Below, in pieces: positions 6,146 through 48,732 of a stretch of DNA of 64,000 nucleotides. The DNA is taken from positions 548,715 to 612,714 of the forward strand of contig CAVTUX010000005.1 of assembly GCA_963738045.1 (NCBI GenBank), in the 5' to 3' direction. The notes beneath the pieces were generated by a model, which was given only the letters and a program-made list of their open reading frames with translations, was not told the DNA's origin and ran no database searches. Made by a program: the position numbers and the translations under genes. The DNA comes from an uncultured Verrucomicrobiae bacterium (lineage in GTDB: Bacteria > Verrucomicrobiota > Verrucomicrobiia > Chthoniobacterales > UBA10450). Every line of letters starts with the position of its first letter. Position 1 is the stretch's first letter.

Positions 6146-6307
6146 CGGAAAAACCGTATCAGAGCGGATTTGAAAAACAAGCTGGCCGGCTCCGGCCATC
6201 GGTGGAACGCGTTCTCAAGGGCCTTTTTCTAGCCGCGGAAGCCTTCTATTACCGAGAGGAGAATCTCTCAATTGAAATTGCAATCTGCTGCCCTACACTG
6301 CGCGACA

Positions 6308-8285
6308 ATGACAAAGAACGACTGGGATATTGAGGCCGCGATCGCGACATACAACGTCGACGGTTGGGGCAGCGGTTATTTCTCGGTCAATAGCGCCGGT
6401 AATGTTGTGGCCAAGCCTTTGCAGGAGAACGGCGGGTCGATTGATCTACTCGAAGTCGTCAACGAAGCGCGTGAGCGCGGGCTTGGATTTCCGCTTGTTA
6501 TCCGTTTTCAGGATCTGCTGCGGCATCGCGTGGAGACAGTCAACCACGCCTTTCAAGCGGCGATGCAGGAGTTCGGTTACCGCAACGGATATCGCGGCGT
6601 GTTTCCGATCAAGGTCAACCAATTGCGCGAGGTGATCGAAGAGATCGTCGATGCCGGCGCACCGTTTCACTTCGGCCTCGAAGCGGGCAGCAAACCGGAG
6701 CTGATCGCAGCCCTCGCCATGCACCAGGATCTCGCCAGTCTTATCATCTGCAACGGCTACAAAGATCGTGCCTTCATTCGCACGGCGATGCTCGGCCGCC
6801 GGCTCGGAAAATCAGTCATTATTGTGGTTGAGAAACTCGAAGAACTGGAGCAGACGCTTCGCATCGCAAAGGAAATGGGCGTCGAACCGTTCATTGGCAT
6901 CCGCGTGCGGCTGCACAGCAAGGGCGCCGGGAAATGGACGACGAGCGGCGGCGAGAACGCGAAGTTTGGCCTCAGCACCACGAACCTCGTCGTGGCGAGC
7001 GAAATGCTGAAAGCGCACGGGCTCGCACATTGTCTCAAGCTCGTTCACTTCCACGTCGGCTCTCAGGTACCCGACATTTCCACGATTAAGCGGGCGGTGC
7101 GCGAAGCAGCGCGCTATTACGCGAAACTTTCGAAGATGGGCCACGAGCTCGGTTACCTCGATGTCGGCGGTGGCCTCGGAGTGGATTATGACGGCTCGCG
7201 CACGACGTTCGACAGCTCGACCAATTACTCGCTCCAGGAGTATTGCAATGATGTCGTCTACAACATCATGGAGGTTTGCGACTCGGAAGGCGTCGCCCAT
7301 CCCGCGATTGTGAGCGAAGGCGGTCGCGCGATCGTCGCTCATCATTCCGTCCTCGTGGTCGAGGCGTTTGGATCGATCGAGAAAGACGTGCATACGACGA
7401 AGATCGAGCCTGCGCCTGACGATCCGAAGCCGCTGCGCGACATCATCGAGGTAAAACGCCAACTGAAGCGCGGCAACCGGCTCGAGACTTTGCACGACGC
7501 GCAACAGATCAAGGAAGAAGCCCACCAGATGTTCAACCTCGGTCTTCTTGATCTCGAAGCGAAAGCCAAGGTTGAAGCGCTTTACTGGCAGCTCGCGCGC
7601 CAGATCGTCAACCTGCACCGCGGGCTGAAATATGTGCCGGAGGAAGTGAAGGAACTGGAGACTTCGTTAGCCGATCAATACATCTGCAACTTCTCGATTT
7701 TTCAATCGCTCCTCGACCACTGGGCGCTGGGTCAGCTTTTCCCGATCATGCCGATCCATCGGCTTACAACCCCGCCTGAGCGCCATGGAACGCTGGTTGA
7801 TATCACCTGCGATTCCGACGGAAAGGTCAACAAGTTCACCGACCTGCAGGATGTGAAAGACACTCTGCCGTTGCACAAAATCATTCCCGGCGAGCTCTAT
7901 TACCTCGGAGTGTTCCTGGTCGGCGCGTATCAGGATATCATGGGTGATCTGCACAATCTGTTTGGCCGCGTCACCGAGGTGCACGTCTTCCTCGACGAGG
8001 ATGAAGAATCCGGTTGGTACATCGAAGAGGTGATCGAAGGGAGTACCGATCGGGCAAGTGCTGGCGCTGACGCAATGGGACAAGATCGAGCTGATGCGCC
8101 TGGTGAAGTTGCAGGTCGACGCCGCGATCAAGAGCGACAGGCTCAAGCCTAACGACGCGATGAAAATCCTGGCCGATTACGAGCGCGGCTTGCAGGGTTA
8201 TACCTACCTCTCGCTCGACGGTGCGGCAGCGGTTAACGGCGCCACCCCCGCCCCCTTGCCACTAGCGGCAACTGCGCAGGGCTGA
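6308..8285 (+). pseudogene. speA: biosynthetic arginine decarboxylase, interrupted by a +1 frameshift near 8048-8054
   Basis: ORF 6272..8152 is SpeA-like from MTKNDWDIEAAIATYNVDGWG (ATG 6308). After ...EEVIEGST it turns into nonsense. The conserved C-terminus IGQVLALTQWDK...YERGLQGYTYL continues in ORF 8058..8285, one frame over. One extra nucleotide in AGTACC-G-ATCGGG joins the two frames. Confidence 0.85.
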
Positions 8286-10055: not shown

Positions 10056-10227
10056 AAACGGTAGGCTCTCCTGTTGAGGCGGGGCTCGGTGGTTAAAAGC
10101 AGCGGCGATCATCGCCAGCTGTTCCCGCGGAAAGGGGTAGGAAATTAGCCACGTTCCGGGGCGCGGTCAACTGGGACCCCAGAATGGGTTTGATCCTCAC
10201 TCGACCCGACTATAATCTTGCGCACTT

Positions 10228-37943: not shown

Positions 37944-40562
37944 ATGGCGGACACGCCGACAGCCAGCCCGGACGAAATTCTGGCCCGCATCAAACGCGAG
38001 GACGAGAAGGCGGTACGCGGACGACTGAAGATCTTCTTCGGAATGTGTCCCGGGCGTGGGCAAAACCTTCGCCATGTTGCAGGCGGCGCGGGAAGCGCAA
38101 AAAGCCGGCCGTGAAGTCGTGCTCGGCGTAGTCGAGACGCACGGGCGCGCGGAGACCGAGGCTTTGCTCGATGGACTGCCGATCGTGCCGCGCGCGCAAC
38201 TCGAACACCGCGGCGCGCACTTTGGCGAAATGGATCTCGACGCGATTCTGCTTTGGCATCCGCAGATCGCCGTCGTTGACGAGCTGGCGCACAGCAACGC
38301 GCCCGGCTCGCGTCATCCCAAGCGCTACCAGGACGTGCTCGAGCTGCTCGCCGCCGGGATCGACGTTTTCACGACCGTCAACGTCCAGCACATCGAAAGC
38401 CGGCGCGATCCCGTGCAGCAAATTACCGGCGTGCTCGTCAGGGAAACCGTTCCCGATTCGGTTCTCGATCGCGGCGGACGAAATCGTCCTGATCGATCTC
38501 ACGCCAGAACAACTGCGCGCCCGACTGGCGGAAGGAAAAGTCTATCTCGGCGATACCGCGGCGAGAGCGTCGGCAAAATTTTTTTCGCGAGAGCAATCTC
38601 ACCGCCCTGCGCGAAATGGCTCTGCGCATCGTGGCCGAGCATGTCGATCGCGATCTGCGCGAGATCATGCAGGAAGAGCGGATCGCCGGTCCCTGGAAAA
38701 GCGGTCATCGTCTGCTCGTGGCGGTGCGCGGCGGTCCGACCTCGGAGAAACTGATTCGTTATGCCCGGCGACTGGCGGCCTCGATGGAGGCCTCGTGGAT
38801 CGTCGCCAATGTCGATACCGGGCGCGCTCTTGGCGAAAAGCACCAGGCGCAGCTCAATCGCGATCTTGCGCTCGCGCGCCAGCTCGGCGCCGAAGTCATT
38901 TCAACGCCCGGCACGCATGTCGGTGAAGCGCTTCTCCGCATCGCGCGTCAGCATAACGTGACCCAGTTCGTCCTCGGCAAACCGGTCAAGACGCGCTGGC
39001 CCTGGCAGCGCTCGTCGCCGATCGATTGGCTCGTGCGGCACAGCGGCGAGATCGACATCCAGATGATTCGCTCGGACGACCGTCCGATTGCGCGCCCGCG
39101 GATCGATTTGGCGGAGCTGCGCTGGCGCGAGTATGGCGTCGCACTCGCGATCGTCGCGGTCATGACTGGAATTTGCCTGACGATCTTTCCGTACATCGGC
39201 TACTGGGCGGTGGCCCTTCTTTATCTGCTCACGGTAACGGTGAGTGCCTTGCGTCTGCACCGCGGCCCGACTTTGCTCCTGACCGCGTTGAGCGCGGCGC
39301 TTTGGGACTTTCTCTTCATCCCGCCCCGCTTCACTTTTTACATTGGTCAGTTGCCGGACTTCATGATGTTTGGAGTCTATTTTGTCGTCGCGCTTGTCAT
39401 CGGGCATCTGGCGACGCAATTGCGCGAGCGCGAAGAAGTCGAGCGCCGCCGCGAAGCAAGAGCGACCGCGCTTTACCGGCTGACGCGTGCGCTGGCCACG
39501 AGCCGCGACCTGGCAGAGGCGCTGGGGGCGGTCGTTCTCTTAATCCGGGATACTTTCCATGCCGAGAGCGCGATTTATCTGCGCGGAGCAAACGGATTGA
39601 TTCCCCACGCGGCCGGTTCTCTGGCGACGACGGAGAAGGATGAGAGCGTGGCCGCCTGGGCCTTTCAAAAAAAAGAACCCGCCGGAATGGGGACCGACAC
39701 GCTGCCCGAATCTCGTGCACTGCATTTGCCATTGCTGGCAGGCGATCGGGCCGAGGGCGTCCTCGCGATCAAGTTGCCGTCGCTCCCTTCCCTCCAGCAA
39801 CGCGAGTTACTCGACGGCTTCGCGGCGCAACTCGCGCTTTATTTGTACAAAGAGCGCGCGCTCCAGGAAAGCCGCGAGGCACAGATGAACGCGCAATCAC
39901 AAAAATTGCAAAAAACGCTTTTTGATTCCGTTTCGCATGAGCTCAAGACGCCGCTCGCGGCGATGTCCGCGACACTGCAACAAGCCAATCCCGATTGCGC
40001 CGAATTGCGGCAGGCGGCAAGGCGCCTAACAAATACGGTGGACAACCTGTTGGACGCAACGCGACTCGAATCCGGGCTTCTCCAGCCAGTGCGGGAATGG
40101 TGCGAGCCGGGCGAGCTGTTGCGCGAGGCGGTCGAACAGGCCGGCCTCGAAGAGCGGGTCGTGGAGGTCGCGGCCAACGGCGATTTGCCGGAGATTTCAG
40201 TCGACGCAGGGCTGATCGAGCAGGCTTTGGTCGCCCTGCTCTCCAACTCTGCCAGCTACAGCCCTCCGCAAACGCCGATCGAGGCCGGCGTGAGCAGGGA
40301 GGACGAGGCGGTCGTCTTCCGTGTCGCGGATCACGGGCCAGGACTTGCCCCAGGGGAAGAAGAAAGGGTTTTCGAAAAATTTTATCGCGGCGCGGGAAAA
40401 CCGGCCGGTGGGCTCGGGCTTGGGCTGTCTATCGCGCGCCAGCTGGTCCAGGCCCACGGCGGTATTGTTATCGGCGAGAATCGCCCCGAGGGCGGAGCAC
40501 GATTTTCCATTCGCCTTCCGTTGGGCGAACCGATGAAGTTGCCGCCGGAAGCTGCCTCGTGA
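37944..40562 (+). pseudogene. kdpD: sensor kinase KdpD with three +1 frameshifts in the N-terminal KdpD domain (near 38055, 38473, 38573)
   Basis: Frame 0 from ATG 37944: MADTPTASPDEILARIKREDEKAVRGRLKIFFGMCPG. Next frame (ORF 38056..): VGKTFAMLQAAREAQ...VRETVPDSVLDR. Next frame (ORF 38171..): ADEIVLIDLTPEQLRARLAEGKVYLGDTAARAS. Back in frame 0 (ORF 38616..40562, open from about 38574): QNFFRESNLTALREMALRIVAEH... This order matches E. coli KdpD as I recall it. Confidence 0.85.
38616..40562 (+). CDS. kdpD: intact distal KdpD reading frame (USP-like, 4 TM, GAF, histidine kinase)
   Basis: 648-aa uninterrupted ORF. H-box SHELKTPLAAM, N/G boxes LLSNSASYSP and DHGPGL..GLGLGLSIA. It could be expressed from an internal start if the frameshifts are real. 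Confidence 0.8.
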   Translation: MALRIVAEHVDRDLREIMQEERIAGPWKSGHRLLVAVRGGPTSEKLIRYARRLAASMEASWIVANVDTGRALGEKHQAQLNRDLALARQLGAEVISTPGTHVGEALLRIARQHNVTQFVLGKPVKTRWPWQRSSPIDWLVRHSGEIDIQMIRSDDRPIARPRIDLAELRWREYGVALAIVAVMTGICLTIFPYIGYWAVALLYLLTVTVSALRLHRGPTLLLTALSAALWDFLFIPPRFTFYIGQLPDFMMFGVYFVVALVIGHLATQLREREEVERRREARATALYRLTRALATSRDLAEALGAVVLLIRDTFHAESAIYLRGANGLIPHAAGSLATTEKDESVAAWAFQKKEPAGMGTDTLPESRALHLPLLAGDRAEGVLAIKLPSLPSLQQRELLDGFAAQLALYLYKERALQESREAQMNAQSQKLQKTLFDSVSHELKTPLAAMSATLQQANPDCAELRQAARRLTNTVDNLLDATRLESGLLQPVREWCEPGELLREAVEQAGLEERVVEVAANGDLPEISVDAGLIEQALVALLSNSASYSPPQTPIEAGVSREDEAVVFRVADHGPGLAPGEEERVFEKFYRGAGKPAGGLGLGLSIARQLVQAHGGIVIGENRPEGGARFSIRLPLGEPMKLPPEAAS

Positions 40563-41526: not shown

Positions 41527-43338
41527 TTGATACCGACTAACGTTAGGCGACCGCGCAACGTGGATGTGCCACGCGCAGCCGCGATCCTTTACGGCGACTG
41601 GGGCACGAGCAAAGCCTATGTCATCGGCCTCGCCTTTGCCGTTGGCGGTTATGCCTCGTTCTGGCTCATCGTCGCGATGTGCGTCCTCACCATGCTGGTG
41701 GGAATCAATTACATCATCGTTTGCCGGCTCTATCCGGAAGGCGGCGGGGTTTACGCCAGCGTTCGCCATCGCTCGCGAGGTCATCTCGATCGTCGGCGCA
41801 TTTTTGCTCATCGCGGATTACCTGGTGACGGCGGCGATCAGCTCGCTTTCGGCTTTCCAATACCTCGGCGTTCCGCATCCGGAGAAGTTTGCTGCTTTGG
41901 CGATCCTCGTCATCGGGTTGCTCAACTTGCTCGGTCCCAAACACACCGGCGGTCTTGCTTTTCTCATCTCGGTGCCGACTGCCCTTGTCGTCATCACGCT
42001 CGCTGCCTTCAGCGTCCCACACCTCGGCACGGCGATTGGAAATGTTCGGCCGCTGGTCGGCGGTTTCTGGAACGATTGGAGCGGTTTCGTAGCGATCGTG
42101 CTCGCGCTTTCGGGTGTGGAAGCGATTGCGAACGCGACCGGCGTCATGCGGCTCGATCCGGGCAGCACCGAGGAGCACCCTTCCGTCACCAAGACTTCCA
42201 CGCCCGGCGCTGCTCTGGGTGATGGTCGAAGTTTGCTTTTTCACCGCGCTCCTCGGTTTGGCGATGCATGCTTTGCCCGGTCTGCAGGTGGTAAACGGCG
42301 AGGTCAATGCTCCGGGCGCCCACGGCGTACGCGATTACATGCTCCGCTACATGGGACAGACTTTTGTCGGTGGCGCGCTTGGCCCGGCTTTGGGTAACGC
42401 CTTTGCGCTCATCGTGAGCGTCGTCTTCGGTTGTCTTCTGCTTTCGGCCGTCAACACCTCCATCGTGGCCCTGATCACGATTCAGTTCCTCATGGCGCGC
42501 GATCGCGAGATGCCGAGGATTTTCCAGCATCTCAACAAATGGGGCGTTCCGAATTTCGGCATGTTGCTCGCCACCCTCGTGCCGATCGCACTTGTCCTCG
42601 TGGTCCGCGACATCGCCGGGCTGGCCGAGTTGTATGCGGTCGGCGTCGTAGGCGCGATCGCGACCAATCTCGGCGCGACGGCGACCGACCGGACGAAGGA
42701 GATGAAGACCTGGGAACGTACCCTCATGTTCGGTACCTTCATCGTCATGGCGGCGATCGAGATCTCGCTCTTCATCGACAAACCGAATGCGCGCTACTTC
42801 GTCGTTACCATCCTCGCCGTCGGACTGATCCTGCGAGGACTGGTGCAGGAAAGCCGGCTGAAAAAAGAAGCTACGCTCGAGCCCGAGACTTTGCCCGTGC
42901 AAGTCGCTAAGGGCGAGTACGGCGGCGCCGGGCGACGGCGAGGTCATGCTCTGCGCCATTCGCGGCCCCGGGCGTACACTCGACTTCGCCTTGCGCGAAG
43001 CGTGCGAAACCGGTCGCCGGCTTTATCTTCTTTTCGTGCGTGAGCAGCGCTTCATGACGGAGCAGGACGCGAAACGTAAATGGCAGGAAGACCCGGAAGC
43101 ACGCGTAATTTTCGAAGACGCCAGAGCCCGTTCGCCGGATTGTCCGCCGCTCTTCTGCTACGCGGTGAGCGACTCCGCCTCGCAGACCATCGTCGATATC
43201 GCGGCGACGTTAGGCGCGTCCCGTCTCATCCTTGGCGCGCCCGGTCGCCACGCCATGGTAAACCTTCTGCGTGGCAATCTGGTCCGCGAGGTCTCCGCCA
43301 TGCTGCCCGAAGAGATCGACCTGCTGGTCTACGCCTGA
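41527..43338 (+). pseudogene. APC-superfamily KimA-like (putative K+) permease with C-terminal USP domain, paralog 1, three +1 frameshifts (near 41779, 42206, 42930)
   Basis: ORFs 41527.., 41564.., 42114.. and 42946..43338 in successive frames together align end to end with the intact paralog at 49342-51171 (LYGDWGTSKAYVIG, YPEGGGVYAS, LSGVEAIANATGVM, SAVNTSIVAL, USP tail ILGAPGRHAMVNLLRGN). Confidence 0.8.
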
Positions 43339-46580: not shown

Positions 46581-48732
46581 CTAGAAATTGTAGCTGACCG
46601 TTCCGTAAAAGCCGCGGCGCTGGCCGTATTGCGGCGCACCCACTCCGATGCCACTGCCGTCACGCAATTCATAAATCCGATCAAACAGGTTGACGACGTC
46701 GAAACGCACCCTCATCGAGCGTTGGTCGCCGAGCGAGATGCTTCTCTCCAGACCGAGGTTGCAGGTAGCATAGGAAGGAACCTTCTGCGTGTTGGCAAAG
46801 CCTCGACGGAGCCCGCTTCCGTAGAGCGCATCGGTCGAGAAAGTCCACTCTTTCCAGTTGTAGGCGACGCCGGCCGAGCCAGTCACGCGCTGATCGTGAT
46901 CAAGAAACACCGCATGGTTCTTAATGTAGTCGAACTCATTCGGATCGAAGAGAAACTGCGCCGAATCGACGTGCTCACCGGTGGCATGTTCGACACCAAG
47001 GTTCAGGTAACTGTAGAAGCCGCCGTGCTCGTAGCTGGCAGTTAGTTCGCCGCCATAAATTTGTCCAGTGCGGTAGTTGAAGGAAGAGAGAATGAGGGCC
47101 TGACCGAACTGGCCTTCATCGAGAATGTTATGCGCCTGCTTGTAGTAACCATCGAGCCCGAACTGGAAACCATCGCCGATCTTCTGCGAGACGCCGGCGT
47201 CGAAGTAATTCGCCCGCTCCGACTTTACGGGCGAGTTGAGGGTGATGGCGGCCTCATTCGTCGTGCCGGCAAATTCCGCGATCGGTACTCTGGTTAACAT
47301 TTTCAAGCGGAGGCGGGGTGAAATAACGCGCGTAACCGGCATGGAAGCTGGTCGATTTCCACGGATTGTAAACAAGGTTAACCCGGGGACTGAACTGATC
47401 CTCTGTCAGGATCTCATTGGCCAGATCGAAGCGGCCCCCGAAGTTCAGTGTCAGTTGCTCGAACGGTTTCCACTCATCCTGCAAATAGGAGCCAAAGAAA
47501 TATCCGTTCTCACTCGAATTATCGACGATCCGAAACGGGACATCGCTGGTTTGATTGCCTGCTGCATCAACCGGAAAGACCAGAGTCGAAGTACCAACCG
47601 GCGCGTACGCTCCGGTAAAGAACAATCCGCCGCGCAGGGTATTATGCTCGTTAAGACCATAACTCATATCGAGTTCCGTGCCGTTGGTGATGACCTGTCG
47701 ATTGACCCGCGAAGCAACCCCGTTGAAGAACAGATCCCCGGTATTATCCGGCCGGAAGAGGACGCCGCTGTAGCTTGTAAAAATCGAGGCCTGCAGGTTG
47801 AAAACATCCGATTTCTTTTGGTAGGTCAGGATGCCGTAGGATGAATTTTCCGCCTGGTTCTCATTTAGCTTCGCGGAATTAAACTCCGTGCTTCCATTGA
47901 CGGCGAATTCCGTCGGCAGGCCCGGGGTGTTCGGAATCTGGAAATTGGCTTCGGCCCCGCCCAGTATGAGCCCGAGTCGACTCGAGTCATCGATGATGTA
48001 GGAGAGATAGGCGAACTCTTTGAATTGATCGGTGTCGTCGTGGATCGGGGTGTAGCTCGAGGTTGGATTTTCGATCCCAATCCCGTTGTGAAGATAACTT
48101 CCGGTCACGTAATAGGTGAGTTTCCCCGCGAGGCCTCCGTATTCGAAACTCGGCATGATGGTATCAAAGCTGCCGACTTGAAGCGAAGCTTCGCCCCCGG
48201 TAAAGGCAGCTCCGCTTTTGGTATGAATGTCGATCACGCCAGTGGTGCGGAAACCGAACTGCGCGGGGAGCGCTCCCGTGATGAGAGAGATGCTGTCTAT
48301 CATCCGCGTTGAGAGTTCCTGGCCGAAGCCGGCGATGCCTTCCGGCAAGAGGACATCATCGAGGCGGTATTGCAGATTGGCGTGCTCTCCGCGCACGTGA
48401 AGCTGGCCGAAGGAATCCTGCGCGACACCCGGAAAACGCAGAATGGTTTGATTAAAGGCAGCGTCTTCGCCTTGCGCCTGCTCACCCAGTCGATCTGGTC
48501 CGACGGTATAGCGAGTGGCTCCGAGGCTGGGCACGATTTGCTCGCGCGAAATGTCGAGTGCCTGACTGGTCACGACGATGCTGTTCGTTGTCGCCCTTCC
48601 CGGCGTAGCGCTCGGACTGGGGGAAGGACTGGGCGACGCAGCGCTCAAAGTCGGCGAAGGGATCGCGTCCTGCGCGATCACGAGGGTGGCGCTGCTGAGG
48701 AGCGCGAAAGTAAAAGCAGTAAATTTCTTCAA
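46581..48732 (-). pseudogene. TonB-dependent receptor split by a +1 frameshift near 47276-47283
   Basis: ORF 47254..48732 (signal peptide, plug, barrel up to ...GYARYFTPPPLENVNQST) and ORF 46581..47375 (...IAEFAGTTNEAA... ending GFYGTVSYNF) overlap in adjacent frames. They join at AGTACC-G-ATCGCGG on the coding strand. Confidence 0.85.

What the first reader, a model, noticed from the sequence alone, without database searches (positions are those of the whole stretch)
8041..8052. Identical 12-mer GAGTACCGATCG at two independent frameshift sites (speA and a TonB receptor)
The speA frameshift lies in GGGAGTACC-G-ATCGGG (8041-8052, + strand). The frameshift in the TonB receptor at 46581-48732 lies in CAGAGTACC-G-ATCGCGG (coding strand; + strand 47279-47290). 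In both, the protein reads Ser-Thr, then one surplus base, then Ile (EGST|IGQVL and NQST|IAEFAG). By my scan these are the only two occurrences of GTACCGATCG in the window, and the unshifted word GTACCATCG does not occur at all. Two unrelated genes breaking in the same 12-nt context is very unlikely by chance. It points to a context-specific process. One option is a k-mer-specific basecalling or polishing artefact, for example around a modified CGATCG or GATC site. The other is a site-specific mutational or recoding event.
Basis: seen in the sequence. Interest (0 to 1): 0.6.

Follow-up and report, generated by a model that had tools for sequence, protein, structure and literature searches.

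The report
Recurrent extra-C assembly error breaking genes
The two broken genes share the word GAGTACCGATCG because this error-rich long-read genome assembly tends to add one false C after AGTAC, so the breaks are almost certainly sequencing artefacts and not biology.

Summary
GAGTACCGATCG occurs twice in the window and twice in the whole 4.1 Mb genome, and both copies lie exactly at +1 frame breaks, in speA and in a TonB-dependent receptor.

The true word would then be GAGTACGATCG.

The genome is a 10-contig, 77%-complete Chthoniobacterales soil MAG. It carries about ten times more +1 frame switches than a cleaner relative. All 15 of those switches at enriched contexts that I compared with relatives have one extra base in G000.

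The same insertion, AGTAC[C]GATCG, recurs in two related noisy MAGs:
- G018 has it at the same receptor site, although an intact relative is as close or closer to G000.
- G006 has it in a kinase gene, in a different codon phase.

Downstream of the receptor break dN/dS is 0.06, so the gene is under selection. A 97%-identical metagenome contig has intact speA. In other relatives the 12-mer sits in intact frames.

Verdict: a context-favoured consensus insertion error. It is neither a pseudogene pair nor recoding.

The parts
8041..8052 (+). 12-mer GAGTACCGATCG at the speA frame break
   Evidence: My frame tracker places the switch at 8048.
8046..8047 (+). CC dinucleotide, one C of which is the most likely surplus base (relatives have ACG ATC)
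   Evidence: Alignment with 11 relatives and with a 97%-identical JGI contig. Deleting G8048 restores the frame equally well. The choice of C rests on the relatives.
6308..8047 (+). speA (biosynthetic arginine decarboxylase), N-terminal 580 codons in frame 1
   Evidence: Pfam Orn_Arg_deC_N (6.7e-41) and Arg_decarb_HB (1.4e-20). The read-through is 98% identical to an intact 658-aa protein.
8049..8285 (+). speA C-terminal 78 codons, in the +1 frame
   Evidence: Pfam Arg_decarbox_C, positions 1-51 of 51, E = 1.9e-12.
47279..47290 (-). 12-mer GAGTACCGATCG at the TonB-dependent receptor frame break
   Evidence: The frame tracker places the switch at 47280.
47284..48732 (-). TonB-dependent receptor, N-terminal 483 codons
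   Evidence: Pfam TonB_dep_Rec_b-barrel, profile positions 17-249 of 436.
46581..47282 (-). TonB-dependent receptor, C-terminal 233 codons plus stop, in the +1 frame
   Evidence: Collinear with the intact 2151-nt orthologue of G011 apart from the single surplus base. The read-through is 96% identical to an intact 716-aa protein. dN/dS is 0.058 against G018.

Best explanation
Both frame breaks are consensus errors of a noisy long-read metagenome assembly and are not present in the organism's DNA. The true sequence at both loci is most likely GAGTACGATCG (Ser-Thr-Ile: AGT ACG ATC). The basecaller and consensus step added a second C after AGTAC.

The error is context-favoured. In this assembly AGTAC|G, and above all AGTAC|GATCG, is a hot spot for a +C insertion. 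These hot-spot errors sit on a genome-wide background of several hundred single-base, mostly C/G, insertions.

Shown here:
- the excess of +1 breaks;
- the extra base relative to relatives at every site checked;
- the recurrence of the same insertion in other assemblies and in other codon phases;
- purifying selection across the receptor break.

Inferred, not shown:
- that the platform is Nanopore with a Flye/Medaka-type consensus;
- that the cause is a k-mer-specific raw-read error that low coverage cannot outvote.

Whether base modification is involved is unknown.
For: 1. Assembly quality.
- G000 has 10 contigs but only 76.8% completeness.
- In the genus, the short-read-like MAGs with hundreds of contigs include the most complete genomes (up to 96%), while many few-contig MAGs reach only 71-87%.

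2. Excess of +1 breaks. My frame tracker finds:

| Genome | '+1' switches per 100 kb | '+2' switches per 100 kb (or count) |
|---|---|---|
| G000 | 11.5 | 4.9 |
| G018 sample | 13.3 | 6 in the 120-kb sample |
| G003 (2 contigs, 93% complete) | 1.1 | 5.0 |

3. Site checks.
- All 15 flagged G000 sites that I compared with better relatives have one extra base in G000 at or near the motif.
- The three kdpD breaks also each have one extra base.
- Against a 97.2%-identical JGI contig, G000 has 5 extra single bases and lacks 1 over 8 kb. speA is intact there.

4. Hot context. Share of coding occurrences that lie at a frame switch:

| Word | At a switch |
|---|---|
| AGTACCGA | 5 of 18 |
| AGTACCG | 10 of 89 |
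| Background | 2.1% |
| AGTACG | 2.5% |
| CCGATCG | 2.4% |

C4:300996 reads GAGTAC[C]GACCG where relatives read GAGCA-CGACCG.

5. Independent recurrence.
- G018 has the same 12-mer and the same extra base in the receptor, while the intact G011 is closer to G000 upstream of the break (95.4% against 92.1%) and about equally close downstream.
- G006 has CAG TAC [C] GAT CGC in a Ser/Thr-kinase/TPR gene, where paralogues and orthologues read TAC-GATCGCGA. This is a different codon phase.
- In these three genomes, 4 of 6 inferred AGTACGATCG sites carry the extra C.

6. Selection. Downstream of the break, dN/dS between G000 and G018 is 0.058 (45 synonymous and 11 non-synonymous differences, dS 0.36). 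There are no further indels or stops.

7. Provenance hint. Few-contig relatives carry Flye-style contig names and 'MFD...bin' titles. That catalogue is Nanopore-only, assembled with Flye and polished with one round of Medaka (PMC12313526).
Against:
- The sequencing platform and coverage of G000 are inferred, not known.
- The error is not deterministic. G000 keeps one un-inserted CCAGTACGATCG in an intact frame. A Flye-style relative has AAGTACGATCG at the orthologous receptor site. G060 has 7 un-inserted copies.
- Published methylation-linked Nanopore errors are mostly substitutions, not insertions (PMC11610603).
- Insertions in non-homopolymer context are not the classic Nanopore signature.
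- Part of the enrichment of GTAC-containing words near errors could arise because errors create words that the genome otherwise avoids.
Confidence: 0.87

Rival explanations
1. Both breaks are assembly insertion errors, but random ones. The shared 12-mer is a coincidence among several hundred errors and there is no context dependence.
For: - Genome-wide, 6 pairs of +1 switch contexts share a 12-mer at a similar offset, against 4.4 expected by chance (P = 0.23).
- With free offsets, 42 pairs are seen against about 34 expected.
- The error is not deterministic at AGTACGATCG.
Against: - The extra base lies at the identical position in both copies, and the window holds only about 8 breaks.
- Shorter shared contexts of 8 to 11 nt are significantly over-represented among +1 switches (for 10-mers, 80 seen against 52 expected; P < 0.005).
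- AGTACCG(A) is 5 to 13 times enriched at switches.
- A hypothesis derived from G000 was then met in two further genomes: G018 and G006, out of 26 other AGTACCGATCG sites examined. The per-site chance expectation is about 1e-4.
Confidence: 0.07
2. The extra C is real DNA. Either these are two recent inactivating mutations (true pseudogenes), or AGTACGATCG is an in vivo insertion hot spot.
For: - The sequence as deposited carries the breaks.
- G018 shares the receptor break.
- The genome has many other broken genes, which could in principle reflect genome decay.
Against: - dN/dS of 0.058 past the break over dS 0.36, in two genomes that both carry it, excludes an old shared pseudogene.
- The intact G011 is as close or closer to G000 than G018 is (closer upstream of the break, about equal downstream), so two independent identical events would be needed.
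- speA is intact in a 97%-identical contig and in 11 relatives.
- The excess of breaks is almost purely +1 and is shared with other few-contig, low-completeness MAGs, but not with G003. That points to the method, not to biology.
- Three +1 breaks within 530 nt of kdpD that sum to zero are not what gene decay produces.
Confidence: 0.04
3. The breaks are programmed recoding: a +1 ribosomal frameshift, or transcriptional slippage, at AGU ACC GAU CG.
For: - Both breaks need +1.
- Both occur in the same codon phase with the same Ser-Thr|Ile junction.
- Both genes are under selection downstream.
Against: - The 12-mer has no slippery, hungry-codon or stop-codon site, and no homopolymer run of the kind transcriptional slippage needs.
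- The G006 case has the same DNA insertion in another phase, CAG TAC [C] GAT.
- The break is not conserved. speA is intact in G018, in G012 (which has AGTACGATCGG) and in all others.
- The 12-mer lies in intact frames in G002, G008, G041, G045, G054, G058 and G059.
- Hundreds of other +1 breaks in unrelated contexts would need the same explanation.
Confidence: 0.01

Closest known systems
Systematic, sequence-context-specific consensus errors in Nanopore-only bacterial assemblies and MAGs (homopolymer indels; methylation-motif errors)
   Same: - The same miscall recurs at the same k-mer in unrelated loci and in separate assemblies.
- It produces frameshifted 'pseudogenes' and lowers marker-gene completeness.
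- It persists after a single polishing round (PMC9262707; PMC12313526; PMC11610573 and PMC11610603).
   Different: - This is an insertion (C to CC) outside long homopolymers. Published methylation-linked errors are mainly strand-specific substitutions such as G to A and C to T.
- No methylation motif has been tied to it.
- Dam-family genes were not found in G000 or G018.
Programmed +1 ribosomal frameshifting (prfB type, CUU UGA C with an upstream Shine-Dalgarno-like stimulator)
   Same: A +1 shift would restore a full-length, conserved protein.
   Different: - There is no slippery P-site codon, no in-frame stop or rare A-site codon, and no stimulator.
- The break is not conserved in orthologues.
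- The same DNA event occurs in another codon phase.
Frameshift pseudogenes in decaying genomes
   Same: Genes are split into two ORFs by one base.
   Different: - Purifying selection continues past the break.
- The breaks are almost all +1.
- Several breaks compensate each other within one gene.
- Near-identical genomes are intact.

Membership tests
Context-specific long-read assembly (consensus) error | The assembly carries a genome-wide excess of indel-type frame breaks relative to cleaner relatives | tested here: met
   '+1' switches per 100 kb are 11.5 in G000 and 13.3 in the G018 sample, against 1.1 in G003. There are 89 single-base indels in 56 kb of G000-G018 alignment. Completeness is 76.8% with only 10 contigs.
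Context-specific long-read assembly (consensus) error | The same miscall recurs at the same k-mer at independent loci and in independent assemblies | tested here: met
   AGTAC[C]GATCG occurs in G000 speA, the G000 receptor, the G018 receptor and the G006 kinase gene. GAGTAC[C]GACCG occurs at C4:300996. AGTACCGA is at a frame switch in 5 of 18 coding occurrences, against a 2.1% background.
Context-specific long-read assembly (consensus) error | The extra base is absent from accurate reads of the same DNA | not testable with these tools
The nearest substitute is a 97.2%-identical JGI contig with intact speA.
Context-specific long-read assembly (consensus) error | The error is tied to a DNA-modification motif | tested here: inconclusive
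   PF02086 (Dam family) was not found in G000 or G018 and was found in G006. PF01555 is present in all five genomes, affected or not. There are no signal data.
Programmed +1 ribosomal frameshift | The shift site is conserved in orthologues | tested here: not met
   In the 11 speA relatives aligned across the site, and in the 97.2%-identical JGI contig, the extra base is absent. The receptor is unbroken at this site in G011, G019, G022 and G023.
Programmed +1 ribosomal frameshift | The site has a fixed codon phase and a slippery or stalling codon | tested here: not met
   The phase is AGT ACC G ATC in G000 and G018 but CAG TAC C GAT in G006. The 12-mer contains no stop, rare codon or repeat (read directly from the sequence).
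True frameshift pseudogene | Constraint is relaxed downstream of the break | tested here: not met
   dN/dS is 0.058 downstream and 0.107 upstream between G000 and G018. There are no extra stops or indels.

The most novel reading that the evidence does not exclude
The extra C is real. AGTAC|GATCG would then be an in vivo hot spot for +1 insertion in these Chthoniobacterales, for example linked to a GTAC or CGATCG restriction-modification or repair activity. That would give recurrent, reversible gene inactivation, or a new kind of recoding signal read at the DNA or RNA level.
Probability: 0.03. Interest if true: 0.65.

Novelty: not a real feature. Interest (0 to 1): 0.1.

Why it matters
This matters mainly as quality control. 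The genome, like several few-contig genomes of the same genus, is the reference for a whole species in public taxonomies. It appears to carry several hundred false single-base insertions.

Consequences of those insertions:
- They split genes, including speA, kdpD, a TonB-dependent receptor and a permease.
- They depress completeness estimates.
- They can be mistaken for pseudogenes, genome decay or recoding.

A reproducible hot context (AGTAC|G, and also GACGTC read as GAACGTC) could be used to flag or correct such errors, and to test basecaller and polisher models. It tells nothing new about the organism's biology.

Tried and rejected
- **Word counts.** I tested whether whole-genome word counts would reveal the error, for example a depletion of GACGTC or AGTACG. 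Counts per Mb are similar in G000, G018 and G003, so only a small share of sites is affected.
- **Genus-wide pattern counts.** Counts of AGTACCGATCG against AGTACGATCG do not by themselves separate noisy from clean assemblies. The loci had to be inspected one by one.
- **Free-offset 12-mer sharing.** This is not informative as a significance test. Chance alone gives about 34 pairs.
- **Methylase correlation.** PF02086 and PF01555 gave no discriminating pattern.
- **Provenance look-up.** An exact look-up of the neighbouring S1 protein found nothing on record.
It proposed that the surplus base is a G in a GG/GGG run 3' of CGATCG. This was rejected for speA and the receptor, because alignments place the gap inside ACCG. 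At kdpD 38470 the extra base is the C of GAT[C]GCG.
- **Extra C before GATC as a general rule.** This was rejected. CCGATCG as a whole is at background, at 2.4%.

Full report
**Observation**

The 12-mer GAGTACCGATCG lies at 8041-8052 on the + strand and at 47279-47290 on the - strand. These are its only copies in the window and in the whole genome G000 (4,106,371 bases, 10 contigs, 76.8% completeness).

Both copies sit exactly where a conserved gene changes frame:
- speA runs 6272..8152 and resumes one base further on at 8049..8285.
- A TonB-dependent receptor runs 48732..47254 and resumes at 47282..46581.

Reading through gives EGST|IGQVL and NQST|IAEFAG. Pfam finds Orn_Arg_deC_N and Arg_decarb_HB in the speA N piece. 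It finds the complete Arg_decarbox_C domain starting at residue 1 of the 78-aa C piece.

**Which base is surplus**

From the sequence alone, G8048 or one C of 8046-8047 can be removed with the same protein result. In 9 of 11 genus relatives speA reads AGC/AGT ACG ATC/ATT GG here, and in 2 it reads ACA ATC. A 97.2%-identical metagenome contig reads AGC ACT ATC.

At the receptor site the orthologues read AGTA-CAATCG, AGCA-CGATTG and, in one Flye-style contig, AAGTAC-GATCG.

The most parsimonious true word is therefore GAGTACGATCG, with a C doubled in the assembly. That word occurs 0 times in G000.

**The genome is full of single-base insertions**

I trained a codon log-odds model on 1,254 long ORFs and tracked the coding frame with a 7-state Viterbi path. 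The path placed the two known switches at 8048 and 47280, inside the 12-mer.

Genome-wide it finds 672 same-strand frame switches that are not ordinary gene junctions. Of these, 472 are '+1' (one extra base) and 200 are '+2'. The same detector was run on samples of two relatives:

| Genome | Size examined | '+1' switches | '+2' switches | '+1' per 100 kb |
|---|---|---|---|---|
| G000 | whole genome | 472 | 200 | 11.5 |
| G018 (20 contigs, 76% complete) | 120 kb | 16 | 6 | 13.3 |
| G003 (2 contigs, 93% complete) | 280 kb | 3 | 14 | 1.1 |

The '+2' class is about the same everywhere and is probably the false-positive floor. The '+1' class is about ten-fold inflated in G000 and G018.

Further checks agree:
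- G000 and G018 differ by 89 single-base indels over 56 kb of alignment, mostly outside homopolymers. G018's own speA has four extra bases elsewhere.
- Against the 97.2%-identical JGI contig, G000 has five extra single bases and lacks one over 8 kb.
- Fifteen flagged G000 sites were compared with better assemblies (G013, G024, G008, G017). All show one extra base in G000 at or next to the flagged point.
- In the genus, the many-contig (short-read-like) MAGs include the most complete genomes (up to 96%), while many few-contig MAGs reach only 71-87%. This is what frameshift-ridden long-read assemblies look like.

**Is the shared context more than chance?**

Genome-wide, sharing a 12-mer is not in itself remarkable. 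With free offsets, 42 pairs of switch contexts share one, against about 34 in random coding controls. With the same orientation and offsets within 5 nt, 6 pairs share one against 4.4 expected (P = 0.23).

Three other lines of evidence show that the context matters.

1. Shorter shared contexts are over-represented among +1 switches. For 8-mers the count is 854 against 608 expected. For 10-mers it is 80 against 52, exceeded by 0 of 200 controls.

2. The word that the insertion creates is strongly enriched at switches, while the word without the insertion and the right half of the 12-mer alone are not:

| Word | Coding occurrences at a frame switch |
|---|---|
| AGTACCGA | 5 of 18 |
| AGTACCG | 10 of 89 |
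| Background | 2.1% |
| AGTACG | 2.5% |
| CCGATCG | 2.4% |

At C4:300996 the assembly reads GAGTAC[C]GACCG where two relatives read GAGCA-CGACCG. C2:152023 and C2:29099 are also compatible with AGTAC[C]G.

3. I treated AGTAC[C]GATCG as a hypothesis taken from G000 and inspected the 26 other copies of AGTACCGATCG in 49 genus genomes. Two sit at +1 switches:
   - G018 has the break at the orthologous receptor site.
   - G006 has it in a Ser/Thr-kinase/TolB_N/TPR gene. There, paralogues and orthologues read ...TAC-GATCGCGA..., so G006 has CAG TAC [C] GAT CGC.

In G000, G018 and G006 together, 4 of 6 inferred AGTACGATCG sites carry the extra C.

The hot spot is not deterministic:
- G000 keeps one CCAGTACGATCG in an intact frame.
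- G060 keeps seven un-inserted copies.
- One Flye-style contig has the un-inserted word at the receptor site.

**Not real pseudogenes**

The receptor gene is 2,152 nt in both G000 and G018, with no other indel. It is 2,151 nt and intact in G011.

| Comparison | Identity upstream of the break | Identity downstream of the break |
|---|---|---|
| G000-G011 (G011 intact) | 95.4% | 92.2% |
| G000-G018 (both broken) | 92.1% | 92.0% |

G011 is thus as close to G000 as G018 is, and closer upstream. A shared ancestral frameshift would therefore need an exact reversion in G011.

Downstream of the break, in the shifted frame, G000 and G018 differ by 45 synonymous and 11 non-synonymous changes. That gives dS 0.36 and dN/dS 0.058, against 0.107 upstream, with no internal stop. 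The gene has been under purifying selection for the whole time that separates two genomes that both 'carry' the break.

speA read through is 98% identical to an intact 658-aa protein of the same length on a syntenic contig. The receptor read through is 96% identical to an intact 716-aa protein.

**Not recoding**

- The 12-mer has no slippery or stalling codon and no homopolymer.
- The break is not conserved in orthologues, including G012, which has AGTACGATCGG at the speA site.
- The G006 event is the same DNA change in a different codon phase.
- The 12-mer lies in intact frames in G002, G008, G041, G045, G054, G058 and G059.

**Mechanism**

The best reading is a k-mer-favoured insertion in raw long reads that a low-coverage metagenome consensus did not outvote. 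The organism is a Chthoniobacterales (Verrucomicrobiota) soil MAG.

Few-contig relatives have Flye-style contig names and 'MFD...bin' titles. That catalogue is Nanopore-only, assembled with Flye and polished with one round of Medaka (PMC12313526). The provenance of G000 itself is not visible to me, so this step is inference.

Base modification is a known cause of motif-specific Nanopore errors, but mainly of substitutions (PMC11610573, PMC11610603). Here I could neither support nor exclude it:
- No Dam-family gene was found in G000 or G018, and one was found in G006.
- N6/N4 methylases occur in affected and unaffected genomes alike.
- GTAC is strongly under-represented in all three genomes examined.

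A second recurrent context is GACGTC read as GAACGTC or GACGTTC.

**Limits**

- The frame tracker is home-made and has a floor of about 6 candidates per 100 kb.
- Placement of the extra base is ambiguous at some sites.
- Part of the GTAC enrichment may arise because errors create words that the genome avoids.

**Verdict**

The frame breaks are a context-favoured assembly artefact. They have low biological interest but are useful as a quality flag for this genome and its few-contig relatives.

Noticed in passing
window 38048, 38470, 38574 (kdpD N-terminal domain, + strand): There are three single extra bases relative to the intact G013 orthologue: TG[T]CCCGGG, GAT[C]GCGGCGG and GTCGG[C]AAAA. 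They sum to zero frame change. At 38470 the inserted C creates CGATCG, and the restored reading VLDAADE fits E. coli KdpD (the E. coli sequence is from my memory).
   Followed up: yes
window 41527-43338 (+ strand): Four overlapping ORFs lie in successive frames. The third hits AA_permease profile positions 259-359 and the fourth hits Usp, so this looks like a permease-Usp gene broken by about three +1 shifts. My tracker places switches at 41756, 42206 and 42930.
   Followed up: partly
genome-wide; e.g. G000 C5:629308, C2:387944, C2:138909: A second recurrent insertion context exists. GACGTC is read as GAACGTC or GACGTTC, and GAA-GTC as GAACGTC. 21 of 1,622 GAACGT/ACGTTC words lie within 8 nt of a frame switch, against 4.3 expected.
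   Followed up: partly
window 5615, 6216, 10095: Extra single bases in G000 relative to a 97.2%-identical JGI contig lie outside the conserved reading frames. The insertions are therefore not confined to coding sequence. The one at 10095 lengthens the apparent N-terminus of the ribosomal protein S1 ORF (579 aa against 560 aa).
   Followed up: partly
L002 / G018:C14 (speA orthologue), aligned to window 6410, 6661, 6734, 6788: speA in G018 lacks the 12-mer break but has four other extra single bases within 400 nt. That assembly is at least as error-rich as G000.
   Followed up: partly
whole genome G000, with G018 and G003 samples: GTAC is several-fold under-represented: 2,765 copies in 4.1 Mb, against about 15,000 expected from base composition (my estimate). 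CTAG and TATA are also rare. This pattern is shared by the clean relative G003, so it is a property of the lineage and not of the errors.
   Followed up: no
L040 (G006:C3:700339-703349): This is a Ser/Thr protein kinase, TolB_N-like and TPR multidomain gene, a member of a multi-copy family with many paralogues in G000, G008 and G017. It is broken at CAGTAC[C]GATCG.
   Followed up: yes
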